A stretch of 64,000 nucleotides of DNA. Source: an uncultured Candidatus Saccharibacteria bacterium (lineage in GTDB: Bacteria > Patescibacteriota > Minisyncoccia > Phycocordibacterales > UBA1550). Positions 2,901-55,209 of this stretch are shown piece by piece. A model generated the notes under the pieces. It worked only from the letters and a program-made list of their open reading frames with translations, had not been told where the DNA came from and did not search any database. The position numbers and the translations under genes were made by a program. The first letter of the stretch is position 1. Each line of letters begins with the position of its first letter. The DNA is taken from assembly GCA_964642305.1 (NCBI GenBank), contig CAZXOE010000002.1, positions 50,300 to 114,299 on the forward strand. Reading direction: 5' to 3'.

Positions 2901-2948
2901 TGCCAGAAGCTCGCGCACAAGCTGGTTTTCGGGTAGAATGATGAAATA

Positions 2949-3073
2949 TGAATCCCGTTAGAGGTCGCACAGTTTTTGTAGAATGGTGAGAAACGACTAT
3001 ACTGATAGGTGATACATTATTAATGAATACTAATTAACTACGGAAATTTTTAATAATTTCCTACCTCTAACGG
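2949..3073 (+). mobile_element. MITE-like mini-element copy 1 (TIR CCCGTTAGAGGT...ACCTCTAACGGG), ORF-less
   Basis: 12-bp terminal inverted repeats at 2954-2965 and 3063-3074. 9-bp direct repeats GATGAAATA at 2940-2948 and 3074-3082. The right end abuts the pgi ATG. The ends are homologous to the copies at 20241 and 40210. Confidence 0.5.
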
Positions 3074-3074
3074 G

Positions 3075-4379
3075 ATGAAATACCAGGGACACATAAAAGA
3101 AGGAGAGCATATCACTGTGGACAATGCTCGCGTGGAGGAGTATGTCGCAAAAATGCGTCTTGCAATGAGCGACAAAGCTTATTCAACCCCAGAAGCATCT
3201 CTGAGGTTGCCCTTTGACGAGGAGCTTCTAAAAAAATCAAAAAACCTCGCAAGCAAACTCGCGGGGCCAAAGCTCACGTATATTTTAGATATTGGCATCG
3301 GGGGGTCAAACCTCGGCGCAAGGGCGCTCTATGAAGCAACCGCTGGAACTATGGACGCACACACGCCATTTGCGCCAAAAATGCTTTTTGCGGACACATG
3401 CTCACCGGAGCTTCTTTCAGATATCACGGAGCTTCTCTTGAATGAAATAGGTGACAAAGAAGAAATTATAATTATTGTCGCAAGTAAGTCTGGCACAACG
3501 ACAGAAACAATCACAAATGCATCTGTGCTTGTCAGCGCGCTTGAACAAAAATTCGGATCACTCACGGATCGCATTGTGTGCATTACGGATGAGAAGTCGC
3601 CACTTTGGATTATGGCGGAAGATCAAAAATTCCATTTGCTTCCAGTTCCAAAAAATGTAGGTGGACGTTTTTCTGTTTTCTCGCCAGCCGGAGTGTTTCC
3701 GCTTCTGTGTGCTGGTATCCCTGGAGATGCGCTTATGCGTGGAGCGCAGTCCGTTATTCACGACGCTATTGAGAGAGGAGTAGAAAGTAATTCTTTTAAA
3801 TTCGCAAAAGATATTATTTCATGGCACGAACAAGGTAGAATCGTGTTTGATTTTTTTGCGTTTCACCCAGAGCTTGAGTCTCTTGGAAAATGGTATCGTC
3901 AACTTTTTGCGGAAAGTACAGGGAAAGAAAAAACAATTGACGGCGCGCCTACAACGCACCGCATGGTGCCAACTGTATCCATAGGTTCCACCGACCTCCA
4001 TTCTGTTGAACAAATGAACCTTGCGCAACAGAATATCTCAGCGCGTTTTCTTGTTCGCGCGCATGCTCCGCACTGGGAGCACCAGTTTTTGGCAGAGGAT
4101 AAAGTGTTTGCCCCACTCGTGCCAGGTGTTTCTAGGCGCGCTCCATGTGAAATTCTTGATGCCATTTATAAAGGGGTCACTGAAACATACAAGGAACGAG
4201 GAGTTTCATATGGTGAGATTTTGCTAACTGATCTTGATCCAGAGTCGCTTGGAGCGCTTATGCAGTTTATGATGTGTACCACGATGCATCTTGCAAAACT
4301 GCTTAATATCAATGCATTTGACCAGCCAAACGTAGAGGCATACAAGGAGGCTACGAGGAGGATTTTGAGCGGGAAATAA
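3075..4379 (+). CDS. pgi: glucose-6-phosphate isomerase
   Basis: DIGIGGSNLG motif (the PGI GIGGS signature). 434 aa, PGI-like throughout. Confidence 0.75.
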   Translation: MKYQGHIKEGEHITVDNARVEEYVAKMRLAMSDKAYSTPEASLRLPFDEELLKKSKNLASKLAGPKLTYILDIGIGGSNLGARALYEATAGTMDAHTPFAPKMLFADTCSPELLSDITELLLNEIGDKEEIIIIVASKSGTTTETITNASVLVSALEQKFGSLTDRIVCITDEKSPLWIMAEDQKFHLLPVPKNVGGRFSVFSPAGVFPLLCAGIPGDALMRGAQSVIHDAIERGVESNSFKFAKDIISWHEQGRIVFDFFAFHPELESLGKWYRQLFAESTGKEKTIDGAPTTHRMVPTVSIGSTDLHSVEQMNLAQQNISARFLVRAHAPHWEHQFLAEDKVFAPLVPGVSRRAPCEILDAIYKGVTETYKERGVSYGEILLTDLDPESLGALMQFMMCTTMHLAKLLNINAFDQPNVEAYKEATRRILSGK

Positions 4380-12539: not shown

Positions 12540-12870
12540 GGCAGAAAATTGTATGATTTGGACTCCCCGAAATTGGGGGAGTTTTTGTTTATCCAATTCA
12601 TAAAGTTTTTTGACGATCATTGACTTTTCCACACCCAAAGAGTATAGTAGGCGAAAGCCCTGCGGGGCTGTTTTTTTAGATAAGATATAACTGGGTACAA
12701 TATTTTAACAGCATTCGGACGCTGTGCAAGAGAGTACTCTCCCACGCGCTCCTCATTCGTCAAAATAACGAGCGAAGCGACATTAGAGTATCTACCCGCC
12801 AAAATTTTTCGTAGAAAAACTTAGGCGGGTGTGATTTCCAACTTCGCTTAACTCAAAGAAAATCAACATC

Positions 12871-20211: not shown

Positions 20212-20240
20212 TTTTACGCAGTCGTGGTATGCTCATTTTT

Positions 20241-20522
20241 ATGAATCCCGTTAGAGACCCCTCAGTTATGTATTACACCTATGTTATCGAGAACGATAAA
20301 GGTACATGGTATACTGGAAGTACGGGAGACCTACGGAAACGCTTTAGAGAGCACAACGAAGGGCAGGCCAACATGGACAAAAGGTAAAGGTTTGTGGAAG
20401 GTTATTTATTACGAAGCATGTCTTAATGAGCAAGATGCTCGGTCGAGAGGGATGTATTTAAAATCAAGAATGGGTAAGCGCTATCTAAAAAGTAGACTAA
20501 AGCGTTTCCTGTCTCTAATGGG
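20241..20522 (+). mobile_element. TIR mini-element copy 2 carrying a GIY-YIG nuclease ORF (TIR CCCGTTAGAGAC...GTCTCTAATGGG)
   Basis: Left end ATGAATCCCGTTAGAG is identical to the first 16 nt of copy 1. Right TIR at 20511-20522 abuts the argS ATG at 20523. Confidence 0.55.
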
Positions 20523-20526
20523 ATGA
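20268..20526 (+). pseudogene. GIY-YIG nuclease (YhbQ/UPF0213-like), interrupted by a +1 frameshift
   Basis: Frame 0 gives MYYTYVIENDKGTWYTGSTGDLRKRFREHNEGQ, the GIY-YIG core. Frame +1 continues TKGKGLWKVIYYEA...YLKSR. A 1-nt shift lies near 20370. The ORF track splits it into 20199..20387 and 20281..20526. Confidence 0.55.
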
Positions 20527-22241
20527 AAGAGAAACTAGAATCAATAGTTGCAGAGGCGCTCAAAGCGCTTGGAATTGAAACTGCGACTGTTACAATAGAA
20601 CGCCCCGCCGACATGGCGCACGGCGACTATTCCACCAACGCGGCTCTGGTTTACGGAAAGAAAGCAGGCATTCCACCGCGCGAGTTTGCGGAGAAACTAT
20701 TAGAAAAAATACGAGATGCATCACCATATGACATAGCAAAAATTGAAATCGCCGGCGCTGGGTTCGTCAATTTTTTCATGACCGCTGACGCGATAAGGGA
20801 AGAAAATAAAAAAGAAAAATGCTCTCTCGTCACTAGGTATTCAAAAAAGAATATTCTTGTGGAGCATTCTTCCCCAAATATCTTTAAACCGTTTCATATC
20901 GGGCATTTAATGAACAACATTGTTGGTGAGTTTGTCACAAGGGCAACAATAATAGGTGGCGGAAATGTCACGACTATATCTTTTCCATCAGATGTTTCCC
21001 TCGGGATTGCAAAAGCGGTGTTTGTCCTTCTTGAGGACAAAAAAGAAGGCAGAGATGTATTTGCGCTTTCAGATGAAGAAAAAATAACCGCATTTGGCGA
21101 AGCATACCGAAGGGGTGTGGAGTATTTTGACACGCGCCCCGATGAGAATGAAAAGGCAAAAGAGATAGCGCGCATCATTTATGACAAAGACCATTCATCA
21201 GAAACTCGCGCGTTTTTTGAACGCGCAAAAGAAATCAACACCGCATATCTTATAAAAATAATAAAGGAGCTTGGTTCTGTTATAGACGAGATAATTTATG
21301 AATCTGAGGCAGGTGAAATAGGGCAAGAGATTGTAGAGAAAAACACGGGCGAGGGAAAAGTGTTTGCAAAAAGTGAAGGCGCAGTGGTGTATGTCCCTGA
21401 TCCCGCGCGCAAGGATTTGCACACGCAGGTCTTTATCAACAGCGAGGGGCATCCGACATATGAAGCAAAAGATCTCGGCCTCATTGATTTGAAGTTCTCA
21501 AAATTTGCGCCCGATATTTCGTATTTTGTCACCGACACGGAGCAGGCATCGCATTTTAGGGTTGTGCTCGATGCCGCAGGGAAGCTTGGTGGTGTGTGGC
21601 CGTCGCGCGTAGAAAAAAGCATTCACATCCCGCATGGAAGAATGCTTTTCAAGGGGCAAAAAATGTCGAGCCGTCTTGGGGGTGTGCCGATCGCTCTTGA
21701 TGTTGTTGCAGTGGTGGAGGAAGAAGTAAGAGAGAGAGCAGGGGAGAAAATTGCGCACCTCGGTGCTCTAGAGAAAATGAAGCTGGAGCGTGAGATTGCG
21801 CTTTCTTCCCTCCGTGTGGCGGTCCTTCGTTCAAAGCCAGGTATTAATATTAATTTTGACCCCGAAACATCACTCTCGTTTGAAGGGGACTCAGGTCCGT
21901 ATCTTTTGTATACACACGCACGAACCGCGTCGCTTCTTGAAAAAGGGAAAGAAAAAGGATATGAGCCAACGTTTGCATCTGTGCCAGTAACACTTTTAGA
22001 AAGAGAGCTAGCGCAGTATGAGTTTGTTTTAGGGCAGGCGGTCACCGATCTTCATCCACAAAAATTAGTGACGTATCTTTTTGAAGTAGCGCAACTATTT
22101 AATGGTTTTTATGGAAGTACGCAAATCATCACAGAAGATAAAGAAACATCCGAGCATTACCTCGCCATAGTAAAGCGGCTCAAAGCAGTCCTCAAGGAAG
22201 GCCTCTGGGTGCTCGGCATTTCCGCACCGGAGAAGATGTAG
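20523..22241 (+). CDS. argS: arginyl-tRNA synthetase
   Basis: HIGH motif FHIGHLMN. Class-I ArgRS-like over 572 aa. Confidence 0.9.
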   Translation: MKEKLESIVAEALKALGIETATVTIERPADMAHGDYSTNAALVYGKKAGIPPREFAEKLLEKIRDASPYDIAKIEIAGAGFVNFFMTADAIREENKKEKCSLVTRYSKKNILVEHSSPNIFKPFHIGHLMNNIVGEFVTRATIIGGGNVTTISFPSDVSLGIAKAVFVLLEDKKEGRDVFALSDEEKITAFGEAYRRGVEYFDTRPDENEKAKEIARIIYDKDHSSETRAFFERAKEINTAYLIKIIKELGSVIDEIIYESEAGEIGQEIVEKNTGEGKVFAKSEGAVVYVPDPARKDLHTQVFINSEGHPTYEAKDLGLIDLKFSKFAPDISYFVTDTEQASHFRVVLDAAGKLGGVWPSRVEKSIHIPHGRMLFKGQKMSSRLGGVPIALDVVAVVEEEVRERAGEKIAHLGALEKMKLEREIALSSLRVAVLRSKPGININFDPETSLSFEGDSGPYLLYTHARTASLLEKGKEKGYEPTFASVPVTLLERELAQYEFVLGQAVTDLHPQKLVTYLFEVAQLFNGFYGSTQIITEDKETSEHYLAIVKRLKAVLKEGLWVLGISAPEKM

Positions 22242-22269: not shown

Positions 22270-23005
22270 AAAGGGGTCAGGTACCTTTGATTTGTGATAT
22301 AGTCTTAGTATATAATACAAACATGCCACGACTACCACGCGTTGATGTTGGAGGAGAAATTTATCACGTCATTAATCGTGCAAATGCACGGTTGCCAATT
22401 TTTTTTAAAGAAGACGACTATAAACTTTTTGAGACAATTATTGAGGAAGCGCAGATTAAATTTGGTATGAGGATTCTCGCGTATTGTTTTATGCCAAATC
22501 ATTTTCATCTTGTATTACATCCAAACAGTGACGGTGATTTGCAGAAGTTTATGCAATGGCTCACGCTTACTCATACTCAACGCTGGCACACAAAAAATGG
22601 AACGACAGGAACTGGACATCTATATCAAGGACGATACAAGTCTTTTCTTGTCCAAGGCGACAGGCACTTACTTACTATTATTCGCTATGTAGAGAGAAAT
22701 CCACTGCGGGCAAAATTGGTCAAGAAAATTGAAAACTGGAATTTCTCAAGCCTCGCTAGGCGACTTTCTGGCAATCCTAAAAAGAATAAATTACTTGAAA
22801 AGTGGCCGATTGAAATGCCAAAGAATTATCTAGCCTTTGTGAACGAACCTATGAATAAAAATGAAGAAGATGTAATCAGGTACTCTGTTAATAGAAGCAA
22901 GCCTTTTGGATCGGACACATGGAGCAGTAGAATGATCGATAAGCACGGGCTAGAGGCGACGATGCGCAACAGGGGAAGACAAATCAAAGGTACCTGACCC
23001 CTTTG
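22270..23005 (+). mobile_element. IS200-like/RAYT unit bounded by 20-bp inverted repeats (AAAGGGGTCAGGTACCTTTG / CAAAGGTACCTGACCCCTTTG)
   Basis: The IRs at 22270-22289 and 22985-23005 are perfect reverse complements. The right IR overlaps the stop codon. Confidence 0.55.
22323..22997 (+). CDS. IS200/IS605-family Y1 (HUH) transposase, REP-associated tyrosine transposase-like
   Basis: HUH motif MPNHFHLVL and a catalytic Tyr region RYVERNPLRA. The TATATAATACAAAC promoter is fused to the ATG. Confidence 0.7.
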   Translation: MPRLPRVDVGGEIYHVINRANARLPIFFKEDDYKLFETIIEEAQIKFGMRILAYCFMPNHFHLVLHPNSDGDLQKFMQWLTLTHTQRWHTKNGTTGTGHLYQGRYKSFLVQGDRHLLTIIRYVERNPLRAKLVKKIENWNFSSLARRLSGNPKKNKLLEKWPIEMPKNYLAFVNEPMNKNEEDVIRYSVNRSKPFGSDTWSSRMIDKHGLEATMRNRGRQIKGT

Positions 23006-29116: not shown

Positions 29117-29185
29117 GGCGTTTCCTATTCTGTCTGTCCTATTACCTATTTACATCTATAGATGTAAATAGGTAATAGGACAGGA
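29117..29185. repeat. palindrome containing CCTATTTACATCTATAGATGTAAATAGG
   Basis: Imperfect ~69-bp palindrome whose 28-bp core recurs at 29779-29808. Confidence 0.6.
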
Positions 29186-29199
29186 AACGCTGGAAGTCT

Positions 29200-29763
29200 T
29201 TAAAGATTAAAATATTTTCGTACCCGAGACTCGTTTTCTATATCGCTAGCAGTAATAAGAAAAATATGTTCTCTCACATTAAAACAATCCCCTAAAAAAT
29301 CAACTTCTTTTTTGCATTCGAACGGTGTTATGAAAACAGATTTTTGGTATGGGTAGCAATTTGCTTTTTTTAACAGTTTATTTAATGCTTGCCTTGAGAA
29401 CTTCTTTTCTTCTGGTATATCAAACATTATTATTCGCCATTTTTTGTCCCACTTTTCGTGTTTATCAGACCTGTCTAATTTTAGATTATTTAGTCGAGCT
29501 TCTTTCCTGCCTTTGTCAGTAAGCGCAACATAAATCTCACCTCCACGATTCTCCATTTTTATTAAACCTTTATTTTTTAAACTTCCTGCTGAGCGTCTTA
29601 TTTTTAGTTTTATTTTCCCATCTTCAATATCAATATATTTGAGCAACTGCGCCAGGTTTGGAAGCGCGAGAATCATAACAAAAGCCCCAGTCGTTAGCAG
29701 AGAGGTTAGGATAATTTTTGAAATCTCACCTTTATCGTATTTTTGTGTATGGCTATTATTCAC
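29200..29763 (-). CDS. PaaX-like protein (winged-helix N-terminus, Cas2-fold C-terminal domain), N-terminal TM
   Basis: KWDKKWRIIMFDIPEEKK...QKSVFITP matches the PaaX C-domain / Cas2-like fold pattern (W.G.W..V.FDIPE....R.....L...G....SV). No cas genes or array nearby. Confidence 0.4.
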   Translation of the reverse strand: MNNSHTQKYDKGEISKIILTSLLTTGAFVMILALPNLAQLLKYIDIEDGKIKLKIRRSAGSLKNKGLIKMENRGGEIYVALTDKGRKEARLNNLKLDRSDKHEKWDKKWRIIMFDIPEEKKFSRQALNKLLKKANCYPYQKSVFITPFECKKEVDFLGDCFNVREHIFLITASDIENESRVRKYFNL

Positions 29764-29778
29764 TGTTAAAAGTATACC

Positions 29779-29808
29779 TATTTACATCTATAGATGTAAA
29801 TAGGTATA
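29779..29808. repeat. 28-bp perfect palindrome CCTATTTACATCTATAGATGTAAATAGG (second copy)
   Basis: Identical core to 29140-29170. The pair brackets the PaaX-like gene. Confidence 0.6.
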
Positions 29809-29933: not shown

Positions 29934-32900
29934 ATGACAGAATCTGAAAAGAAACTCTCTGATATTGCAAAACGCGAGGAGGAAACTCTTGCGAGCTGGC
30001 AGTCTGCTGATATTTTTGAAAAGACGCTTGAGCAAACTAAAAATGGTGAAAGTTTTGTTTTCTATGACGGGCCTCCATTCGCGACTGGCCTTCCGCACTA
30101 CGGACACATACTTGCAAGCACAATCAAGGATGCGATACCTCGCTATCAAACCATGCGTGGGCGATACGTTCGCCGTGTATGGGGTTGGGACTGCCACGGT
30201 CTTCCAATTGAAAACCTAATAGAAAAGGAGCTTGGGCTTGAACACAAAAAAGATATTGAGGAATATGGTGTAGAAAAATTTAACGAGGCGTCACGCGCTT
30301 CGGTGTATCGCTATGATGCAGAATGGAAAAAGTTTATTCCGCGAATCGGGCGATTCGTTGATATGGATCACTCATATAGCACGATGGATGCAGGCTACAC
30401 CGAAAGCGTATGGTGGGCTTTTAAGGAGCTTTTTAAAAAAGGTCTCGTGTATCAGGGTTTTAAGCCGATGCATATTTGTCCGAGGTGCGAGACAACACTT
30501 TCAAACAATGAAGTAACGAGTAACTATAAAGACATAACCGATATTTCAGTCACGGCAAAATTTGAGCTTGTTAAAGAGCCGGACACATACATTCTCGCGT
30601 GGACTACGACACCTTGGACTCTCCCAGGAAATGTGGCACTCGCAGTTTCTCCAGACTCTGAGTATGTGAAAGTAGCAATAGGGGACGAGAAATATATTTT
30701 GGCTGGAGAACGCGCTGAGGCAGCTCTTTCTGGGAAAGAGTACACAATAGTTTCGCGAATGAAAGGTTCTGAACTTGTTGGCGCAGAGTACAAACCAATT
30801 TTTGATTATTACTCAGAACAGGGAACGCTGGACAATCGCGAAAATGGATGGAAAGTGTACGGAGCAGAATTTGTAACAATGGAGAGCGGTACTGGAGTGG
30901 TGCACATCGCGCCAGCCTTTGGCGAGGACGATATGAATCTCGGCACAAAAGAAAATTTGCCGTTTATACAACATGTTGCAATGGATGGCACAATGAAAAA
31001 AGAAGTTCGGGATTTTACCGGTGTTTCTGTGAAGCCAAAGTCTGACGAAAAGGATGGACATCAAGCGACGGATATTTTAATTATTAAACACCTTGCAGGC
31101 GCTGGCGCGCTTTTTTCAAAAGAAAAAATTATTCACGCGTACCCGCATTGTTGGCGTTGCGAGACACCGCTTTTAAACTACGCGGCTCAATCGTGGTTTG
31201 TGAAAGTACCTGAACTAAAAGATAAACTTCTTGCAGAGAACGCAAAAACATCTTGGGTGCCAAAAAATATGCGCGACGGGCGTTTTGGAAAGTGGCTGGA
31301 AGGCGCGCGCGATTGGGCAATCTCGCGCTCGCGATATTGGGGAGCGCCAATTCCAGTGTGGGAATGTGAAAAATGTGAGGCGAGGGAAGTGTTTGGCTCT
31401 CGTGCGGAGCTTTCTCTGCGTGTGAAAAAATCCGGCAACAAATATATTGTAATGCGTCACGGCGAGGCAGAAAGCAATGTTAAGAGAGTTGTGAGTTCAA
31501 AAACAGACGGAAGCTCAGCGTACGGACTTACAGCAAACGGGCGCGCATTAGTAGAGGAGACTGGCAAGAAACTAAAAGAAAAAGGAATTGACATTATCAT
31601 CACGTCGCCTTTTGTGCGCACAAAGGAGACTGCGGAGATAGTCGCCGGAGCTATTGGTTTTGATACGCGAAAGATTATTGTTGATGAGCGCATCAAAGAA
31701 ATTGACACAGGGGTTTTTGACGGAAGATCAATTGACGAGTATCGCGGACACTTCGTTTCGATGGCGGAAAAATTCACAAAGAGACCCGAGGGAGGGGAGA
31801 ATTTGCTTGATGTGAAGCGTCGAGCCATGGCTCTTCTTGAAGATCTTGAAAAAGAGTACGCAGGCAAGACTATTCTTATTGTCACGCACGAATATCCTAT
31901 CTGGATGCTTATGACAGGAATAGAAGGAGCGAGCATTACGCGCGGAATAGAGATAAAAGACGGCAAAGAAGATTTTGTAGAGACCGGAGAAGTAAAAGAA
32001 ATACAGTACAGCCCATTCCCACACAATGCGGATTTTGAATTTGACCTGCACTTGCCGTACATAGACACTGTGGGTTTGTTGTGTAGTTGCGGTGGTAAAA
32101 TGAAGCGTGTCCCGTATGTTTTTGACTGCTGGTTTGAGTCTGGCTCAATGCCATACGCGCAGTTCCATTATCCGTTTGAAAACAAGGAACTTTTTGAAAA
32201 GAATTTTCCTGCGGATTTTATTGCTGAGGGTGTGGATCAAACACGTGGGTGGTTTTACTCCATGATGGTTCTTTCCGTTGCGCTCTTTGGTAAGGCTCCG
32301 TTTAAAAACGTAATAGTGAACGGAATGACGCTCGCGGAGGATGGGCAAAAGATGTCGAAGAGTCGCAAAAATTATCCCGACCCAGTGGATGTGATCAACA
32401 AATATGGCGCGGACGCTGTGCGTTATTATATGCTGTCGTCTCCGATAGTGCATGCGGAAGATCTTGCGTTTTCAGAAATGGGTGTAGATGAAGTTGTTAA
32501 AAAAAATATCGCTCGCCTTCTCAATGTGCTTTCCTTCTACAAGATGTATGGAGGAAGCGCTGCGCCTACCAAAGGGGAGAGTGAAAACCCTCTCGATCAA
32601 TGGATTCTCGCGCGTCTCGCAGAGCTTACGACAGAAATGACTAACGCTTTTGATAATTATGAACTTGATCGCGTGGTAAAACCTGTTGGACTTTTTATTG
32701 ATGATTTATCCACATGGTATATTCGTCGTTCACGAGAACGCTTTAAGTCAGATGAGACTGTGGATCGCGCGCATGCTATCGAAACGACACGCGTGGTACT
32801 TTTGGAGCTCTCAAAACTTATTGCGCCTGTGATGCCGTTTCTCGCGGAGCATATATATCAAAATGTCGGAGGTAACAAGGAAAGCGTGCATCTTGAAACT

Positions 32901-33425
32901 TGGTCGAAATCAAAAGAAGTAAACTCAGAAATTCTTGCAAGAATGGAAGAAGTTCGTCGAGTCGTCTCTGTTGCTCTTGAGGATCGCGCGAACGCCGGGT
33001 TGAAAGTTAGGCAACCACTTTCTTCGGTAACAATTCCATCTGTACTCAAAATTAATGTTTCTGATGAGGCGATCATCACCGATGAAATTAATGTGAAGCG
33101 TGTAATACGATCAGATGCTCATGATGCAAAAATTGAGATTGATAGAGAGATTACTCCAGAACTCAAAAAAGAAGGGCAGTTTCGTGATGTACTACGCACT
33201 GTACAAGAGTTACGCAAATCTGAGAATCTTAATCCTGCTGATAAAGTAGTGTTAAATGTGCATACTGATGATGATGGTAAAGAATTTCTGGAGTTATTTA
33301 AAGATGATTTAAAGAAGACCGCACTTTTGCTAGATATTCGTTTTACTAGTGATTTATTTGCGCAAGGGGGGAGCGCAAGCATTTCTTTTGATAAATTTTC
33401 TTTTGATTTTACTTTAGATAAATAA
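29934..33425 (+). CDS. ileS: isoleucyl-tRNA synthetase with an inserted histidine-phosphatase (PGAM-like) domain
   Basis: HIGH (PHYGH) and KMSKS present, plus the editing domain (WTTTPWTLPGN). A ~220-aa insert between VWECEKCE and HLPYID contains RHGEAESN...SPFVRTKETAEI. Confidence 0.9.
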   Translation: MTESEKKLSDIAKREEETLASWQSADIFEKTLEQTKNGESFVFYDGPPFATGLPHYGHILASTIKDAIPRYQTMRGRYVRRVWGWDCHGLPIENLIEKELGLEHKKDIEEYGVEKFNEASRASVYRYDAEWKKFIPRIGRFVDMDHSYSTMDAGYTESVWWAFKELFKKGLVYQGFKPMHICPRCETTLSNNEVTSNYKDITDISVTAKFELVKEPDTYILAWTTTPWTLPGNVALAVSPDSEYVKVAIGDEKYILAGERAEAALSGKEYTIVSRMKGSELVGAEYKPIFDYYSEQGTLDNRENGWKVYGAEFVTMESGTGVVHIAPAFGEDDMNLGTKENLPFIQHVAMDGTMKKEVRDFTGVSVKPKSDEKDGHQATDILIIKHLAGAGALFSKEKIIHAYPHCWRCETPLLNYAAQSWFVKVPELKDKLLAENAKTSWVPKNMRDGRFGKWLEGARDWAISRSRYWGAPIPVWECEKCEAREVFGSRAELSLRVKKSGNKYIVMRHGEAESNVKRVVSSKTDGSSAYGLTANGRALVEETGKKLKEKGIDIIITSPFVRTKETAEIVAGAIGFDTRKIIVDERIKEIDTGVFDGRSIDEYRGHFVSMAEKFTKRPEGGENLLDVKRRAMALLEDLEKEYAGKTILIVTHEYPIWMLMTGIEGASITRGIEIKDGKEDFVETGEVKEIQYSPFPHNADFEFDLHLPYIDTVGLLCSCGGKMKRVPYVFDCWFESGSMPYAQFHYPFENKELFEKNFPADFIAEGVDQTRGWFYSMMVLSVALFGKAPFKNVIVNGMTLAEDGQKMSKSRKNYPDPVDVINKYGADAVRYYMLSSPIVHAEDLAFSEMGVDEVVKKNIARLLNVLSFYKMYGGSAAPTKGESENPLDQWILARLAELTTEMTNAFDNYELDRVVKPVGLFIDDLSTWYIRRSRERFKSDETVDRAHAIETTRVVLLELSKLIAPVMPFLAEHIYQNVGGNKESVHLETWSKSKEVNSEILARMEEVRRVVSVALEDRANAGLKVRQPLSSVTIPSVLKINVSDEAIITDEINVKRVIRSDAHDAKIEIDREITPELKKEGQFRDVLRTVQELRKSENLNPADKVVLNVHTDDDGKEFLELFKDDLKKTALLLDIRFTSDLFAQGGSASISFDKFSFDFTLDK

Positions 33426-40188: not shown

Positions 40189-40209
40189 ATTGCAGTCGTG
40201 GTTACTTGT

Positions 40210-40327
40210 CCCGTTAGAGATAACTCAGTTATGTTTTCGGCGATAATGGGATATACTGAGATTACTATTATTAGAAGTTAAATATAATTAAGATAAGGAA
40301 ATTTAATAATTTCCTATCGCTAACGGG
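40210..40327 (+). mobile_element. TIR mini-element copy 3 (CCCGTTAGAGATA...TATCGCTAACGGG), ORF-less deletion derivative
   Basis: Left end shares cccgttagaga..ctcagttatg with copy 2. Right end shares ggaaatttaataatttcctaNNNctaacggg with copy 1. It abuts the metG ATG. Confidence 0.5.
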
Positions 40328-41896
40328 ATGACAGAAAAAAAATTCTACATCACTACGCCTATTTTTTACGCGAATGCGGAGCTCCATTTAGGGCACACAT
40401 ATACGCTTGTTTTGTCAGACGTTTTAGCGCGATATCATCGCTTTGTAGGAGACAATACTTTTTTCCTAACAGGCTCCGATGAGCATGGCGACAAAATTGT
40501 GCGTTCTGCGCAAAAGGAAGGCATGGGGCCTCAGGCGTTTGTAAATATAAATGTCGCAAAAATGGAGGTGCTTATTCAGGAGCTTGGTATATCAAATGAT
40601 CTATTTATTCGCACCTCCGATCAAGAGCATCATTGGTCAGGAGCAAAGAAGCTGTGGCACGCGCTTGAGGAAGCTGGTGATATTTACAGGGGCACATACA
40701 AAGGGCTTTACTGTGTTGGGTGCGAGGCATTCATTACCGAAAAAGAATTAGTGAGTGGCAAATGTCCTTTGCATGACGCTCCACCAGAGCATATTGAAGA
40801 AGAAAATTATTTTTTCAAACTTTCAAAATATGGCCCTGAAATAAAACGATTACTTGAAAGTGGAGAATTAAAAATTACTCCCCATTCACGAGTAAATGAA
40901 ATAGTTTCACTCATCTCTGGTGCGAACGGAGAGAGTGCTTTGGTAGATGTGAGTATCTCTCGCCCAGAGCGCGCGATACCGTGGGGGATACCTGCGCCAA
41001 GTGACCCAACACAGCTAATGTATGTGTGGTGCGACGCGCTTTCAAACTACATTTCTGCTCTTGGCTACGGTACAGACAATGATGAAAATTTCAAAACTTT
41101 TTGGCCAGCGGATATTCAGGTGTTGGGCAAAGACATACTTCGTTTCCACGCGCTCCTTTGGCCAGCATTTTTATTGTCAGCGAAGATTCCGCTACCACGC
41201 GAGCTTTTGGTCCATGGGTTTGTCAATTCAGGAGGGAAGAAGATGTCTAAGTCCTTGGGTAACGTGTTGAGTCCGGGTGAATTTATTTCAGAGTATGGCA
41301 GGGACGCGCTTCGGTATTACCTTACGAGAGAGGTAACTCCCGTGGATGATTGGGATTTAACCCGAGAAAAATTTAAAGAAGTTTACAATGCAAACCTGGC
41401 AAATGGCTTGGGGAACCTTGTATCACGCACTTTAAAAATGGCTGAATCGTATTTTGGAGGAGTGGTAAAAGGTGACGCGACACGTGTACCTCCTATTAAA
41501 ACAAAAATGTCCGATGTGGAAACGTTTGATGAAATTGCAGGTATTAATATTCCATATATTATTACAAATGACATTTTGCCACGTTACCATAAACATATGA
41601 GCGCGAATGAGATAAATAGAGCAGCGGACGTAATTTGGGAGCTCATTGGGCATCTAGATCAATTTGTTACAGATTATGAGCCATTTAAGCTTGTGAAGAC
41701 AGACAAGGAGTCTGCGGAGGCTGTAATTTGGTGTCTTTTGTACGGACTTCGCGAGGTTGGCCAAATGCTTACGCCAATGATGCCAGATACAGCGCAAAGG
41801 ATTATAACGCTTGTTGGCGCATCCGATGTCAAGGCTGATGAAATGGTCTTTAATGCAAAAGCACTCACCGAACCGCTTTTTATGCGCAAAGAGTAG
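40328..41896 (+). CDS. metG: methionyl-tRNA synthetase
   Basis: HIGH motif (ELHLGHTY) and KMSKS. Confidence 0.9.
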   Translation: MTEKKFYITTPIFYANAELHLGHTYTLVLSDVLARYHRFVGDNTFFLTGSDEHGDKIVRSAQKEGMGPQAFVNINVAKMEVLIQELGISNDLFIRTSDQEHHWSGAKKLWHALEEAGDIYRGTYKGLYCVGCEAFITEKELVSGKCPLHDAPPEHIEEENYFFKLSKYGPEIKRLLESGELKITPHSRVNEIVSLISGANGESALVDVSISRPERAIPWGIPAPSDPTQLMYVWCDALSNYISALGYGTDNDENFKTFWPADIQVLGKDILRFHALLWPAFLLSAKIPLPRELLVHGFVNSGGKKMSKSLGNVLSPGEFISEYGRDALRYYLTREVTPVDDWDLTREKFKEVYNANLANGLGNLVSRTLKMAESYFGGVVKGDATRVPPIKTKMSDVETFDEIAGINIPYIITNDILPRYHKHMSANEINRAADVIWELIGHLDQFVTDYEPFKLVKTDKESAEAVIWCLLYGLREVGQMLTPMMPDTAQRIITLVGASDVKADEMVFNAKALTEPLFMRKE

Positions 41897-42019
41897 TTTG
41901 CCTATTCTTTTTGTCGTTGCGAGGCACGAAGCAATCTACGGGTTAATTCTGGCTTGCTTCTGAACTAGCAAGTTCACGTCTTGGACGCAACCCACGCAAT
42001 GACAGGAATTAAAAACACC

Positions 42020-43907: not shown

Positions 43908-44051
43908 AAAATCAATGAGCGAAGCGAATATGATTTTCTTATCCGCCTAAGTTTTCGAATTAACAAATTCGTGGCTCTGCCATAAACTTTTATTTGAAAA
44001 ATTTTGGTGGGTGGGGAGGTCCAGTCTAGCCATATCAATTAAAAACAAACT

Positions 44052-46601: not shown

Positions 46602-46635
46602 GTGTTTATCGAGGGGAAATACGATGCCTAATGCG

Positions 46636-46693
46636 TCTTTGCGAGTACTCGAAGCAATCTACAGGTTCTGGATTGCTTCGAGTACTCGCAAAG
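46636..46693. repeat. 58-bp hairpin (23-bp stem) at the 3' end of ftsK, member of a dispersed repeat family
   Basis: tctttgcgagtactcgaagcaatc-tacaggttctg-gattgcttcgagtactcgcaaaga. It shares CGAAGCAATCTACRGGTT with 41925-41945. Confidence 0.6.
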
Positions 46694-46708
46694 ACCAGGT
46701 GGCGAGTC

Positions 46709-50040: not shown

Positions 50041-50107
50041 TAAGGCCCGGCCTCGGATACCAGAGCATAACCAAGGCCCGGCCTCGGGTACTCTCGAGGC
50101 CGGGCCT
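50041..50107. repeat. REP-like GC-rich palindromic doublet (AAGGCCCGGCCTCG...)
   Basis: aaggcccggcctcgg ... aaggcccggcctcgggtactctcgaggccgggcctt. Related to the palindromes flanking RAYT #2. Confidence 0.6.
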
Positions 50108-50869
50108 TATTATCCACACCTTACTCTCATCACCACTTGCTTGTTTCTTGCCCCATTTTCTGCTATTATATACCCGTGTGGAGAGGTTGGTAAGTATCGT
50201 TAAATGTGTCTGCATTCCGCATCCACTTTCAACTTCGAATCAGCTGATTCGTGGCTCGGCCATGAAAACTTTCAAGCGACTAGTTTGGAAGTTATCCACA
50301 CATATACTTTGCAGGTTAATCTTGCACCGTATATAATGTATGTAAGTTCAGTGCGTAGATTAATTTCTGCGTTACTGAATTTAGGCGTAGTGAATGTGTC
50401 CGCACATTTGCGCGTCATTAAAATAGAAACTCCCGGCTTACGATAGATTGCAAGCAAGGGGAGAGTCCATTGAAAACTAGGTCCGTTGCGAAAAGATATT
50501 CGCTGTATCCAAGGACTGCCATTGGGTACCCTCAAGGGCAGTCCTTGGATATCTTCTCGCACCGGATCTTGCATAGAAAACATATCTCACAATTAGGTAT
50601 GTTCTCATTGTTTGCTCGCATCTGCATTCTTGTCAGTTGCGAATCAGCTGATTCGTGTCTTGGACATAAAATTGTCCAGGTCAGTTGTCAGATGTATTTG
50701 CAAAGCAAATTTCTATGGCCTCGATCCGTGTGGTCGAAGCACTACCGCATGACCGACAAAACGACAGAATAAAAAAAGTTCACTTAATTAAAGTGTGCAC
50801 GAAAACCTTCCTCAACTGCAAAGACGAAGAGGGAGCACACTGTGCGATTAGAAACATATCAATTTATTT

Positions 50870-54124: not shown

Positions 54125-54318
54125 TTTTACTAGGGACTAAGTAACAACGAAAAGAGTCTTAGTCTCAAATTAGGTCAATGCGTCGCTTCAGAGAAATTAT
54201 CTCGAACGAGCTAAACCCAAAACGAAACTAACCTCCCTGCCCGCCACTGCCTGTCGCTCCTGAATTAGCAAATTCACGTCTTGGACGCAAATGAGCAGTT
54301 AGGCGATGGCAGGCGGGA

Positions 54319-54375: not shown

Positions 54376-54411
54376 CCAAGCTCCCCAAGGCCCGGCCTAT
54401 GTACATAGGCC
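54376..54411. repeat. 36-bp perfect palindrome CCAAGGCCCGGCCTATGTACATAGGCCGGGCCTTGG (REP-like, left of RAYT #2)
   Basis: Read directly; identical to 55109-55144. Confidence 0.85.
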
Positions 54412-54434
54412 GGGCCTTGGTATATAATACAAGC

Positions 54435-55088
54435 ATGAGGAAGCTCAATTTTTCTATTCATGAATACTACCATCTCTACAGTCGTGGTACCGACAAACGT
54501 ATTATATTTAGCGATGAAGAAGACAAGCAAAGATTTTTACATCTCTTGTATCTCTGTAATACTGACAGCAGTCTAATATTTAGAGAGATACCCATAGGCC
54601 GGGCCTATGAAGAGAGAAAAGGAGATACTTTGGTTAATATTGGAGCATATTGCATGATGCCAAATCACTTCCACCTACTTGTTAGAGAGAAGAAGGATGG
54701 TGGAATCACGAAATTTATGGGTAAATTACTAACATCGTATTCAATGTACTTTAACAAGAAATATAAGCGTACTGGGACTTTGTTTGAGAGTAGATTTAAG
54801 GCAAAGCATGCTAATGATGATAAATACTTGAAGTATTTATTTGCTTATATTCATCTAAACCCAGTTAAGATTATTGATCCAAAATGGAAGGAAAATGGGA
54901 TTAAGGATCGAGATAGTGCTGAGGAATATCTAGAAAGTTATCAATATTCGAGTTACGCGGATTACGTAGGCGACCATCGTAAGGAGAGCAACATCCTTAA
55001 TAAGCGAGTGTTTCCAGAGTATTTTTCAAAGCAGCAGGAATTTAAAGAATTCATAAAAGAGTGGCTATCCTATGGCAATATAGTGTAG
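54435..55088 (+). CDS. IS200-like Y1 (HUH) transposase / REP-associated tyrosine transposase (RAYT)
   Basis: HUH motif MPNHFHLLV and a Tyr region YIHLNPVK. The TATATAATACAAGC promoter is fused to the ATG. The ORF track's upstream extension is discounted. Confidence 0.7.
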   Translation: MRKLNFSIHEYYHLYSRGTDKRIIFSDEEDKQRFLHLLYLCNTDSSLIFREIPIGRAYEERKGDTLVNIGAYCMMPNHFHLLVREKKDGGITKFMGKLLTSYSMYFNKKYKRTGTLFESRFKAKHANDDKYLKYLFAYIHLNPVKIIDPKWKENGIKDRDSAEEYLESYQYSSYADYVGDHRKESNILNKRVFPEYFSKQQEFKEFIKEWLSYGNIV

Positions 55089-55108
55089 CCCCGAGGACTA
55101 CCAAACCA

Positions 55109-55144
55109 CCAAGGCCCGGCCTATGTACATAGGCCGGGCCTTGG
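55109..55144. repeat. 36-bp perfect palindrome, identical second copy (right of RAYT #2)
   Basis: Read directly. Confidence 0.85.
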
Positions 55145-55209
55145 TGGTAAAGTTATCCACAATAAAGTTAGGTGTTTCGGGGGTGGATTGGTAGAATTAG
55201 AGGAATTAT

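What the first reader, a model, noticed from the sequence alone, without database searches (positions are those of the whole stretch)
41961..41991. Dispersed ~35-bp hairpin-plus-tail repeat family (five copies) in intergenic regions
Copies: ctgaactagcaagttcacgtcttggacgcaa (41961-41991); ctgaattagcaaattcacgtcttggacgcaa (54260-54290); ttcgaattaacaaattcgtggctctgccataaac (43954-43988); ttcgaatcagctgattcgtggctcggccatgaaaac (50234-50269); gcgaatcagctgattcgtgtcttggacataaa (50639-50670). Each has a short hairpin (GAAYNAGC..RTTC) followed by a conserved tail (CGTGKCTYGGMCRYRAAA). A second sub-motif, CGAAGCAATCTACRGGTT, links 41925-41945 to the 23-bp-stem hairpin at 46636-46693. These behave like REP/BIME-type elements and may be the substrates of the RAYTs.
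Basis: seen in the sequence. Interest (0 to 1): 0.55.

Follow-up and report, generated by a model that had tools for sequence, protein, structure and literature searches.

The report
Two-hairpin dispersed repeat of Parcubacteria
The five short repeats are real copies of a ~32-base, two-hairpin DNA element that is scattered through the genomes of many tiny "candidate phyla radiation" bacteria, sometimes even in-frame inside essential genes. It behaves like the REP/RPE palindromic repeats of better-known bacteria but has a different architecture and no identified enzyme that moves it.

Summary
There are exactly five copies, all on the + strand and all intergenic, against 0.02 expected by chance.

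The "tail" is a second hairpin. The unit is a 6-bp stem with a 4-nt loop, directly followed by a 4-bp stem with a 3-nt loop, then YAAA(C).

A degenerate pattern found at least 115 loci in about 45 Patescibacteria (Parcubacteria-type) genomes and none in viral contigs. Across 126 copies, 99.6% of stem positions pair and 5 of 10 pairs covary. Copies at orthologous sites differ only by pair-preserving changes.

Copies lie in either orientation relative to genes: in intergenic spacers, in terminator loops, near tRNA genes, nested in each other, and in-frame inside DnaE, GyrB, LigA, UvrC, RecJ, TGT and aminoacyl-tRNA synthetase genes.

Two clean filled-versus-empty orthologous sites show it is gained or lost as a unit.

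There is no general target-site duplication and no Rfam match. The RAYT-like genes are each flanked by their own, different palindromes, never by this motif.

Verdict: a REP/RPE-like insertional palindromic repeat with a new two-hairpin architecture. The RAYT link is unsupported and the mobilising enzyme is unknown.

The parts
41961..41991 (+). Copy 1 (subtype B, T-A closing pair). H1 41961-41976 (T GAACT AGCA AGTTC A), H2 41977-41987 (CGTC TTG GACG), tail CAAC. Lies between metG (ends 41896) and tatD (ATG 42020).
   Evidence: 46.3 bits; genes
43956..43987 (+). Copy 2 (subtype A, C-G closing pair). H1 43956-43971, H2 43972-43982 (TGGC TCT GCCA), tail TAAAC. Lies in the ssb-rpsR spacer, in the loop of a host hairpin.
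   Evidence: 53.2 bits. The orthologous spacer of Yonathbacteria UBA11698 (L031) lacks exactly this block.
50236..50267 (+). Copy 3 (subtype A). H1 50236-50251, H2 50252-50262 (TGGC TCG GCCA), tail TGAAA. Flanked by the direct repeat ACTTTCAA.
   Evidence: 54.1 bits
50640..50671 (+). Copy 4 (subtype A). H1 50640-50655, H2 50656-50666 (TGTC TTG GACA), tail TAAAA. Lies about 200 nt upstream of the 1084-aa gene. It is shared with relative L049, where H2 carries a compensatory G-C pair in place of T-A.
   Evidence: 58.6 bits
54261..54291 (+). Copy 5 (subtype B). H1 54261-54276, H2 54277-54287 (CGTC TTG GACG), tail CAAA. Sits at the tip of a long host hairpin downstream of the 1084-aa gene.
   Evidence: host hairpin -37 kcal/mol, z -3.3; 50.6 bits
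41916..42000 (+). Host hairpin of copy 1: outer stem GUUGCG/CGCAAU, inner hairpin GAAGCAA...UUGCUUC (41928-41960). The element is inserted between the 3' strand of the inner stem and the 3' strand of the outer stem.
   Evidence: The same arrangement is seen in L004, L017 and L031.
46635..46695 (.).
   Evidence: (I9)
43938..44015 (+). Host hairpin of copy 2 (CCGCCTAAGTTTT ... AAAATTTTGGTGGG).
   Evidence: -24.5 kcal/mol, z -4.5; call 42b
12794..12855 (-). Paralogous 'empty' version of the copy-2 host hairpin. Both flanks are present without the element.
   Evidence: I3 and I13 overlap by 8 nt here, but are 27 nt apart at 43955/43983
54236..54317 (+). Host hairpin of copy 5 (CCUGCCCGCCACUGCCUGUCGCUC ... 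GAGCAGUUAGGCGAUGGCAGGCGGG).
   Evidence: flank duplex -34.3 kcal/mol
29934..29960 (+). Unoccupied site. In relative L114 the orthologous class-I aminoacyl-tRNA synthetase gene carries a 48-nt in-frame insertion after codon 6 that contains the element in reverse orientation.
   Evidence: 47f, 49

Best explanation
The five copies belong to a family of ~32-nt non-coding insertional repeats of Parcubacteria/Paceibacteria-type CPR bacteria.

Each unit is two directly abutting DNA hairpins: a 6-bp stem with a 4-nt loop, then a 4-bp stem with a 3-nt loop, followed by YAAA(C). A weakly conserved C-R and a T-rich stretch lie just 5' of the unit.

Shown here:
- The hairpin structure, not the sequence, is what is conserved.
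- The unit is present or absent as a block at orthologous sites.
- It lands in intergenic spacers, in loops of existing hairpins, inside other copies at the H1/H2 junction, and in-frame in essential genes.
- It does so in either orientation and without a regular target-site duplication.

Inferred: it spreads as folded single-stranded DNA recognised by a trans-acting enzyme, with a HUH/Y1 transposase as the obvious but unproven candidate. This is the way REPs/REPINs and IS200/IS605-derived elements are thought to move. Copies persist because the structure stays under selection, either for continued recognition or because the hairpins are useful in DNA or in transcripts.

In this window all five copies are extragenic and co-oriented with the neighbouring genes, so they are probably transcribed as parts of spacers and 3' or 5' untranslated regions.
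For: Structure:
- 126 copies have 99.6% of stem cells paired, and 5 of 10 pairs show double changes; 0 of 500 shuffles reach this, and shifted registers collapse to 18-51%.
- The H1 closing pair lay outside the search pattern yet is CG 84, UA 37, UG 2, other 3.
- The degenerate pattern allowed mispairs, but K-M was 64/64 and Y5-R10 64/64 Watson-Crick among unique sequences.
- Model-found copies outside the pattern show compensatory changes at otherwise fixed positions: GACCC/GGGTC, GACTC/GAGTC, AACCT/AGGTT, CGCC/GGCG.

Gain or loss as a unit:
- The ssb-rpsR spacer is filled in the window and empty in L031, and the paralogous hairpin at 12794-12855 is empty.
- The aminoacyl-tRNA synthetase N-terminus is empty in the window and filled in L114 (call 47f).
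- L031 has a copy in the ftsK spacer that the window lacks.

Intragenic copies:
- They use only stop-free frames and occur in both orientations, in DnaE, Mur ligase, TGT, LigA, GyrB, UvrC, PheT, RecJ and trigger factor.
- GyrB carries the element in the same linker in opposite orientations in two genomes.
- The TGT copy lies in a 38-aa segment absent from solved TGT structures.

Other:
- One subtype is nested in another at the H1/H2 junction in at least 8 loci.
- Orientation relative to genes is mixed.
- Copies at orthologous sites differ at 58 stem pairs; 54 are double compensatory, 4 are wobble and 0 are disruptive.
Against: - No mobilising enzyme has been identified. The Y1/RAYT-like genes nearby have their own different flanking palindromes.
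- There are no terminal inverted repeats and no regular target-site duplication. Only about 5% of copies have long flanking direct repeats.
- Only two filled/empty pairs are cleanly alignable, and the direction of the change (insertion or precise deletion) is inferred by parsimony.
- Strict conservation with compensatory change at orthologous sites is more than a decaying selfish insert would show, and fits a host function equally well.
- Among spacers between co-directional genes, copies are co-oriented with transcription 33:16. This could reflect an RNA-level role or a replication-strand bias.
- Insertion into hairpin loops is only an enriched minority (7.7% against 2.3%), not a rule.
Confidence: 0.62

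Rival explanations
1. A host-functional structured element. The two-hairpin module is kept because a conserved host factor uses it, either on DNA (for example a nucleoid, topoisomerase or replication-repair protein recognising extruded or single-stranded hairpins) or on transcripts (3'-end stabiliser or processing site). Its dispersal by insertion is secondary. This overlaps with the best explanation, as it does for classical REPs.
For: - Copies at orthologous sites stay intact, with only pair-preserving changes, while flanks diverge strongly.
- The element is retained in very small genomes whose shared proteins are only 45-80% identical.
- There is a 33:16 excess of co-orientation with transcription in unidirectional spacers.
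- Wobble pairs favour the given strand: 9 G-U against at most 5 other non-standard cells.
- Three of the five window copies form three-way junctions with an outer stem.
- Copies lie 25-80 nt upstream of tRNA genes in several genomes.
Against: - The downstream genes do not form a consistent class: tatD, rpsR, a surface protein and a transposase in the window.
- Many copies are antisense to transcription or inside coding sequence in either orientation.
- There is no Rfam family.
- Copies are present or absent between close relatives at otherwise conserved loci.
Confidence: 0.25
2. One reading: these are the cognate REP substrates of the RAYT-like Y1 transposases encoded in the window (22287-22997 and 54435-55088), which cleave and re-join them.
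For: - Two Y1_Tnp genes are present, and their best curated match is 'REP-associated tyrosine transposase'.
- Copy 5 lies about 145 nt upstream of one of them.
- The absence of target-site duplication and the hairpin dependence fit HUH chemistry.
Against: - Both matches are below the curated cutoff (71.8 and 44.8 against 80 bits).
- Every Y1 gene examined (five) is bracketed by its own palindrome, different in each case and never this motif.
- In the window, the AAGGCCCGGCC palindrome family is the one with the classical RAYT-flanking arrangement.
- Y1 genes occur in only 4 of 115 motif loci, 3 kb or more from the motif.
- The motif is nearly identical across genomes whose Y1-flanking palindromes all differ.
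Confidence: 0.1
3. A promoter, transcription-factor site or cis-regulatory leader RNA acting on the downstream gene.
For: All five window copies are upstream of, and co-oriented with, a + strand gene. Several copies in other genomes sit just upstream of tRNA genes.
Against: - Stem positions covary, which a double-strand sequence reader would not require.
- There is no -10 or -35 element at a fixed distance (sequences).
- Copies occur between convergent genes, in terminator loops, antisense, and inside long ORFs.
- There is no shared downstream function.
Confidence: 0.03

Closest known systems
REP elements (GTAG- and CGTC-tagged repetitive extragenic palindromes; Di Nocera et al. 2013, PMC3733652)
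   Same: Both are 20-40-nt structured palindromic repeats, dispersed and mostly extragenic, with subfamilies that differ by compensatory stem changes. Some families span many species. Occasional in-frame intragenic copies are notably in DNA synthesis/repair and tRNA-related genes. CGTC REPs likewise 'apparently lack a dedicated transposase'.
   Different: - This element has two abutting short hairpins (6 bp and 4 bp) instead of one 8-9-bp stem.
- It has no unpaired GTAG or CGTC terminal tag. The CGTC/TGTC tetramer, when present, is base-paired in hairpin 2 and covaries to TGGC.
- Copies are mostly singletons rather than head-to-head dimers.
- They are not depleted between divergent genes (16 divergent against 12 convergent).
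- The host lineage is Patescibacteria.
REPIN-RAYT systems (Bertels and Rainey; Nunvar et al. 2010, PMC2817692)
   Same: Both are hairpin-dependent repeats that persist over long evolutionary times in a lineage. Y1/HUH transposase homologues are present in the same genomes.
   Different: The Y1 genes are not flanked by this motif and have other cognate palindromes. The motif is not organised as inverted doublets.
Rickettsia palindromic elements (RPE; Ogata et al. 2000, as reviewed in PMC10969869 and PMC3733652)
   Same: Both insert in-frame into unrelated housekeeping genes, adding a short hydrophilic peptide, as well as into intergenic DNA. Both occur in reduced genomes of host-dependent bacteria.
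   Different: RPEs are about 100-150 bp and restricted to Rickettsia. This element is 32 nt, so extra bases must accompany it to keep the frame (48 nt in the synthetase case). No intragenic copy occurs in this window.
IS200/IS605-derived miniature elements (PATE-type) and their single-strand transposition
   Same: No target-site duplication, dependence on DNA hairpins, a weak sequence preference just 5' of the element, and insertion into single-stranded or hairpin-prone places.
   Different: No cognate TnpA has been identified. The two hairpins are unlike each other and directly adjacent, with no internal segment. The cleavage sites are unknown.

Membership tests
REP (GTAG/CGTC super-families, PMC3733652) | Small (20-40 bp) palindromic repeat present in multiple dispersed copies | tested here: met
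   32-nt unit; 5 copies in the window; at least 115 loci in about 45 genomes
REP (GTAG/CGTC super-families, PMC3733652) | Unpaired terminal tag fitting GTAG or CGTC next to a single 8-9-bp stem with a 4-5-nt loop | tested here: not met
   Two abutting hairpins of 6 and 4 bp. CGTC/TGTC is paired with GACG/GACA and covaries to TGGC/GCCA. Definition read.
REP (GTAG/CGTC super-families, PMC3733652) | Predominantly extragenic, between unidirectional and convergent ORFs | tested here: inconclusive
   Crude ORF calls place 44 of 131 hits inside some ORF of >=90 aa, many of them probably spurious short or antisense ORFs; 23 lie in open frames of >=250 aa. So roughly two-thirds to four-fifths are extragenic. 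Of those: 49 unidirectional, 12 convergent, 16 divergent. There is no depletion at divergent spacers.
REP (GTAG/CGTC super-families, PMC3733652) | Units mostly arranged as inverted dimers (BIME/REPIN-like) | tested here: not met
   Most loci have a single copy. Inverted pairs occur only in L044, L052 and L069. All five window copies are direct and more than 400 nt apart.
REPIN-RAYT system | RAYT gene flanked by its cognate REP/REPIN sequences | tested here: not met
   Five Y1 genes are each flanked by other palindromes. No Y1 gene is adjacent to the motif.
REPIN-RAYT system | Encoded Y1 protein is a bona fide RAYT | tested here: inconclusive
   Pfam Y1_Tnp is met. The NCBIfam REP_Tyr_transpos match scores 71.8 and 44.8 bits, below the 80-bit cutoff.
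Rickettsia palindromic elements (RPE) | In-frame insertion into unrelated housekeeping ORFs | tested here: met
   DnaE, GyrB (twice), LigA, UvrC, RecJ, PheT, TGT, Mur ligase, trigger factor and a class-I aminoacyl-tRNA synthetase in related genomes (47f). None in this window.
Rickettsia palindromic elements (RPE) | About 100-150-bp element encoding a conserved peptide; Rickettsia lineage | tested here: not met
   The unit is 32 nt. The encoded peptide varies with compensatory stem changes (LWPSHESADS, LCPRHEPAGS, LRPRREFVNS at the LigA N-terminus). Hosts are Patescibacteria.
MITE | Terminal inverted repeats and target-site duplication | tested here: not met
   Flanking direct repeats of >=7 nt occur in 6 of 130 copies (0.9 expected), and none of >=4 nt in 83 of 130. 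The two hairpins are internal palindromes, not terminal inverted repeats.
IS200/IS605-type single-strand element | No target duplication; hairpin ends; insertion 3' of a short specific target; cognate TnpA | tested here: inconclusive
   No duplication. Hairpins present. There is only a weak 5' preference: purine at -5 in 90-95% of copies, C at -6, T-rich -3 to -1, with no covariation with the 3' flank. The enzyme was not identified.
Known cis-regulatory or catalytic RNA (Rfam 15) | Match to a curated covariance model | tested here: not met
   No hit at gathering score in the window. No hit on any copy at E<=5.
Sigma-70 promoter or transcription-factor operator | Fixed orientation and distance to a downstream gene; sequence rather than pairing conserved | tested here: not met
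   Mixed orientation and intragenic copies; covariation of stem positions

The most novel reading that the evidence does not exclude
The two-hairpin module is not just a selfish REP-like repeat. It may be a lineage-wide functional nucleic-acid module of Parcubacteria, recognised by a conserved but unidentified host or element-encoded protein that is not a RAYT. It would be kept under structural selection for hundreds of millions of years and tolerated even inside essential replication and repair genes. That would make it a new kind of persistent 'replicator or punctuation' system in the most reduced bacterial genomes.
Probability: 0.2. Interest if true: 0.75.

Novelty: new variant of a known kind. 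Interest (0 to 1): 0.52.

Why it matters
CPR/Patescibacteria genomes are among the smallest and most streamlined known and are usually described as poor in repeats. A structured repeat family shared by dozens of such genomes would matter for three reasons.
- It gives a handle on how mobile or structured DNA persists in minimal genomes. It is conserved by compensatory change, polymorphic between relatives, and inserted in-frame into DnaE, GyrB, LigA, UvrC and RecJ.
- It extends the REP/RPE phenomenon beyond Proteobacteria, with a new architecture and no cognate RAYT.
- It is a practical annotation issue: spurious small ORFs, odd peptide insertions in essential proteins, and assembly breakpoints.

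The covariance model built here can be used directly for a census.

Tried and rejected
- **Rfam**, at gathering and relaxed thresholds: nothing on the copies.
- **tRNA/tmRNA scan of the window**: none. A T-arm-like sequence next to some copies turned out to be inverted tRNA-Arg 3' fragments, not an interrupted RNA gene.
- **Promoter reading**: no hexamers at a fixed distance, mixed orientation, intragenic copies.
- **Mini-ORF or conserved-peptide reading**: the peptide changes while pairing is kept.
- **Target-site duplication**: present in only about 5% of copies, in ACTTT-repeat contexts.
- **'Always inserted in a hairpin loop'**: the overall flank-pairing distribution is not shifted (p=0.57); only the strong tail is enriched about three-fold.
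- **A third closing helix** between the conserved 5' and 3' flanks: no covariation.
- **Association with Y1/RAYT genes**: absent.
- **Viral origin**: 0 hits in viral contigs.
- **Spread across CPR classes**: I first took the 'Saccharibacteria', 'Gracilibacteria' and 'Shapirobacteria' labels at face value. Shared proteins are up to 71-82% identical to Nomurabacteria/Yonathbacteria loci, and the 'Gracilibacteria' loci show no UGA recoding, so the labels are unreliable and I withdrew that claim.
- **Origin of replication** near 50.1 kb (DnaA-box-like TTATCCACA): such 9-mers are scattered over the window and the GC skew shows no switch.
- **TIGR arrays** (found in a literature search): these are tandem, not dispersed.
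- **Other orthologous spacers** for copies 1, 3 and 5, and for L066: too diverged to give clean boundaries (calls 42a, 42c, 42d, 47e, 47g).

Full report
**1. Observation**

- A pattern spanning both halves (GAAYNNNNNNRTTCRYGKCTYKGMCRY) matches exactly these five sites, all on the + strand, even with two mismatches allowed. Shuffles give 0.02 expected.
- An unfiltered covariance-model scan of all 64 kb again returns only these five (46-59 bits; next best 9.9 bits).
- All five are intergenic. Copy 1 lies between metG and tatD. Copy 2 lies between ssb and rpsR. Copies 3 and 4 lie in an 838-nt gap upstream of a 1084-aa PG-binding protein. Copy 5 lies between that gene and a Y1_Tnp gene.
It is a separate hairpin family (46635-46695, 25-bp arms), and a shorter version of it hosts copy 1.

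**2. Anatomy**

The "tail" is a hairpin. Aligning 126 copies gives this unit:
- [C/T]GAAYY-ARCW-RRTTC[G/A], a 6-bp stem with a 4-nt loop;
- directly followed by YGKC-TYK-GMCR, a 4-bp stem with a 3-nt loop;
- then Y-AAA-(C).

Evidence for the pairing:
- Of 1260 stem cells, 99.6% pair, and 5 of 10 pairs show double changes. No shuffle reaches this, and slid registers fall to 18-51%.
- My search pattern allowed mispairs at the degenerate positions, yet K-M and Y5-R10 were Watson-Crick in 64 of 64 unique sequences.
- The H1 closing pair lay outside the pattern altogether and is CG 84, UA 37, UG 2, other 3.
- Copies found only by the model carry compensatory changes at positions the pattern had fixed: GACCC/GGGTC, GACTC/GAGTC, AACCT/AGGTT, and CGCC/GGCG in hairpin 2.

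Two subtypes recur. Subtype A has a C-G closing pair and GTGKC...GMCAT (window copies 2-4). Subtype B has a T-A closing pair and ACGTC...GACGC (window copies 1 and 5).

Beyond the hairpins there is a weak sequence preference: a purine at -5 in 90-95% of copies, C at -6, T-rich -3 to -1, and AAAC followed by a T-rich run at the 3' side. These outer positions do not covary, so there is no closing helix.

**3. Distribution**

My estimate of the chance expectation for that collection is about 0.5. All hits are Patescibacteria MAGs, from about 45 genomes, several with 6-8 or more loci.
- No viral contig matched.
- The lineage labels need caution. Proteins shared between "Saccharibacteria"-labelled and Nomurabacteria/Yonathbacteria loci reach 71-82% identity, and the "Gracilibacteria" MAG shows no UGA recoding. 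I therefore claim only spread across Parcubacteria/Paceibacteria-type genomes whose shared proteins are about 45-80% identical.
- The window itself is closest to Yonathbacteria UBA11698, at 75-85% DNA identity with synteny over 41.7-57.4 kb.

**4. Where copies sit**

- Relative to crude ORF and tRNA calls, intergenic copies are 33 same/same, 16 opposite/opposite, 16 in divergent spacers and 12 in convergent spacers.
- Many lie 25-80 nt upstream of tRNA genes, but others lie downstream of or antisense to tRNAs.
- Some sit in the loops of terminator-like hairpins (L019, L033, L044, L101; window copies 2 and 5). Strong flank-to-flank pairing is enriched about three-fold (7.7% against 2.3%), but it is not the rule.
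- In at least 8 loci a subtype-B copy is nested in a subtype-A copy exactly between H1 and H2.

Twenty-three copies lie inside open frames of 250 aa or more.
- They use only the stop-free frames and occur in both orientations.
- The hosts are DnaE, a Mur ligase, TGT, LigA, GyrB (two genomes), UvrC, PheT, RecJ and trigger factor.
- In GyrB the element occupies the same Toprim to C-terminal linker in opposite orientations in two genomes, which implies independent events.
- In TGT the encoded peptide lies in a 38-aa segment absent from all solved TGT structures.
- At the LigA N-terminus of three genomes the peptide changes (LWPSHESADS, LCPRHEPAGS, LRPRREFVNS) while the pairing is kept. Selection therefore acts on the nucleic acid, not on the peptide.

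**5. Gain and loss**

- In the ssb-rpsR spacer, the relative L031 keeps the host hairpin (CCGCCTAAGTTTT...AAAATTTTGG) but lacks a 35-nt block containing copy 2. A paralogous hairpin in the window (12794-12855) is likewise empty.
- Conversely, the window's class-I aminoacyl-tRNA synthetase gene (29934-33425) lacks a 48-nt in-frame insertion that carries the element in the orthologue of L114 (calls 47f, 49).
- L031 has a copy in the ftsK spacer that the window lacks. Copies 1, 3 and 5 are absent from the relative, although those spacers are too diverged for clean boundaries.
- Flanking direct repeats of 7 nt or more occur in 6 of 130 copies (0.9 expected). Three are 11-13 nt long and lie in ACTTT-repeat contexts. 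Most copies have none. Both clean pairs have AAGTTTT immediately 5' of the element.

**6. Conservation in place**

I grouped copies that share flanks across genomes. At stem pairs there are 54 double compensatory differences, 4 wobble changes and none that break a pair. Unpaired motif positions differ at 11%. The 25-nt flanks differ at about 60% in ungapped comparison. Window copy 4 and its orthologue in L049 differ by exactly one such T-A to G-C swap in hairpin 2. This could be in-situ compensatory evolution, or short-tract conversion or replacement from other copies. Either way the structure is maintained.

**7. The RAYT hypothesis**

- The two Y1_Tnp genes match the REP-associated tyrosine transposase model best, but below its cutoff.
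- Each is bracketed by its own palindrome: a 26-nt inverted repeat at 22270/22979, and CCAAGGCCCGGCC...GGCCGGGCCTTGG at 54385/55108.
- The AAGGCCCGGCC family has 8 copies against 0.5 expected, including a cluster at 50042-50108. It is the family with the classical RAYT-flanking arrangement.
- Three further Y1 genes in related loci are each flanked by yet other palindromes.
- Y1 genes occur in only 4 of 115 motif loci, never next to the motif.

So the two-hairpin element is not the cognate flanking REP of any Y1 gene seen. Action in trans cannot be excluded.

**8. Comparison with known families**

- No Rfam family matches, and I found no description in the searchable literature.
- The closest known things are REPs. 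Di Nocera et al. (PMC3733652) define them by an unpaired GTAG or CGTC tag, a single 8-9-bp stem and frequent inverted dimers. They also report intragenic REPs concentrated in DNA synthesis/repair and tRNA-related genes, and CGTC REPs without a dedicated transposase.
- The behaviour matches, including the striking host-gene bias. The architecture does not: there is no tag, there are two short abutting hairpins, and copies are mostly singletons.
- RPEs share the in-frame habit but are 100-150 bp.
- MITE criteria (terminal inverted repeats, target duplication) are not met.
- IS200/IS605-like single-strand transposition fits the lack of duplication and the hairpin dependence, but it is untested.

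**9. Mechanism, and how sure**

- Shown: a structure-constrained 32-nt two-hairpin unit that is gained or lost as a block, is orientation-independent, and is tolerated in coding sequence.
- Inferred: spread via folded single-stranded DNA by an unidentified trans-acting enzyme.
- Open: whether persistence reflects a host function.

**10. Verdict**

The finding is real and correctly sensed as REP-like. It is a new architectural variant of a known kind in a lineage where such repeats have not been described. The RAYT link is unsupported. Interest is moderate: 0.52.

Noticed in passing
window 50042-50108, 54385-54421, 55108-55148: AAGGCCCGGCC palindrome family (8 copies against 0.5 expected). It brackets the RAYT-like gene 54435-55088 on both sides and forms a three-copy cluster downstream of the HTH gene. 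This family, not the finding's motif, has the classical REP-RAYT arrangement.
   Followed up: partly
window 22270-23004: The second Y1_Tnp gene (22287-22997) is enclosed by a perfect 26-nt inverted repeat, AAAGGGGTCAGGTACCTTTGATTTGT. Y1 genes in L049, L051 and L036 each have yet other flanking palindromes.
   Followed up: partly
window 50313-50640: A conserved non-coding block lies between copies 3 and 4, behind a TTGCAG-17-TATAAT promoter-like site. It aligns with L049 and L028. The consensus fold has 98 pairs, 14 with double changes, from only 3 sequences. There is no Rfam hit, and the overlapping 103-aa ORF is poorly conserved as protein. It is a candidate structured RNA or a long leader of the 1084-aa gene.
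   Followed up: partly
window 2947-3085, 20240-20530, 40203-40335: A repeated leader lies directly upstream of pgi, argS and metG. Its 5' box TCCCGTTAGAG is complementary to a 3' box CTCTAACGGGATGA that contains the start codon, with about 90-250 nt between them. It may be a start-codon-sequestering regulatory RNA. There is no Rfam hit.
   Followed up: partly
window 29143-29806: A PaaX-middle/Cas2-like ORF (29200-29763, - strand) is flanked on both sides by a perfect 32-nt palindrome, TACCTATTTACATCTATAGATGTAAATAGGTA.
   Followed up: no
window 29934-33425: A class-I aminoacyl-tRNA synthetase gene with a histidine-phosphatase (His_Phos_1) domain inserted at residues 505-671.
   Followed up: no
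L006 (DnaE fragment), residues 235-647: The DnaE of one motif-bearing genome also carries an intein with a LAGLIDADG domain, in addition to the in-frame element copy at residue 720.
   Followed up: no
L086 1610-1760: A motif copy sits between inverted fragments of a tRNA-Arg 3' end, between the tRNA-Val and tRNA-Arg genes. The same context recurs in L050, L061 and L113.
   Followed up: partly
flanks of many subtype-A copies (e.g. window 50225-50235 and 50267-50274; L034, L056, L083): Short arrays of ACTTTNN(R)ACTT units surround a subset of copies, giving 8-13-nt direct repeats on both sides. Similar ACTTTTAAC boxes lie 8-12 nt before start codons in several loci.
   Followed up: partly
loci L005, L006, L009, L013, L052, L056, L075 and others: The record labels 'Saccharibacteria' and 'Gracilibacteria' of several hit MAGs look unreliable. 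Shared proteins are up to 82% identical to Nomurabacteria loci, and there is no sign of UGA recoding.
   Followed up: partly
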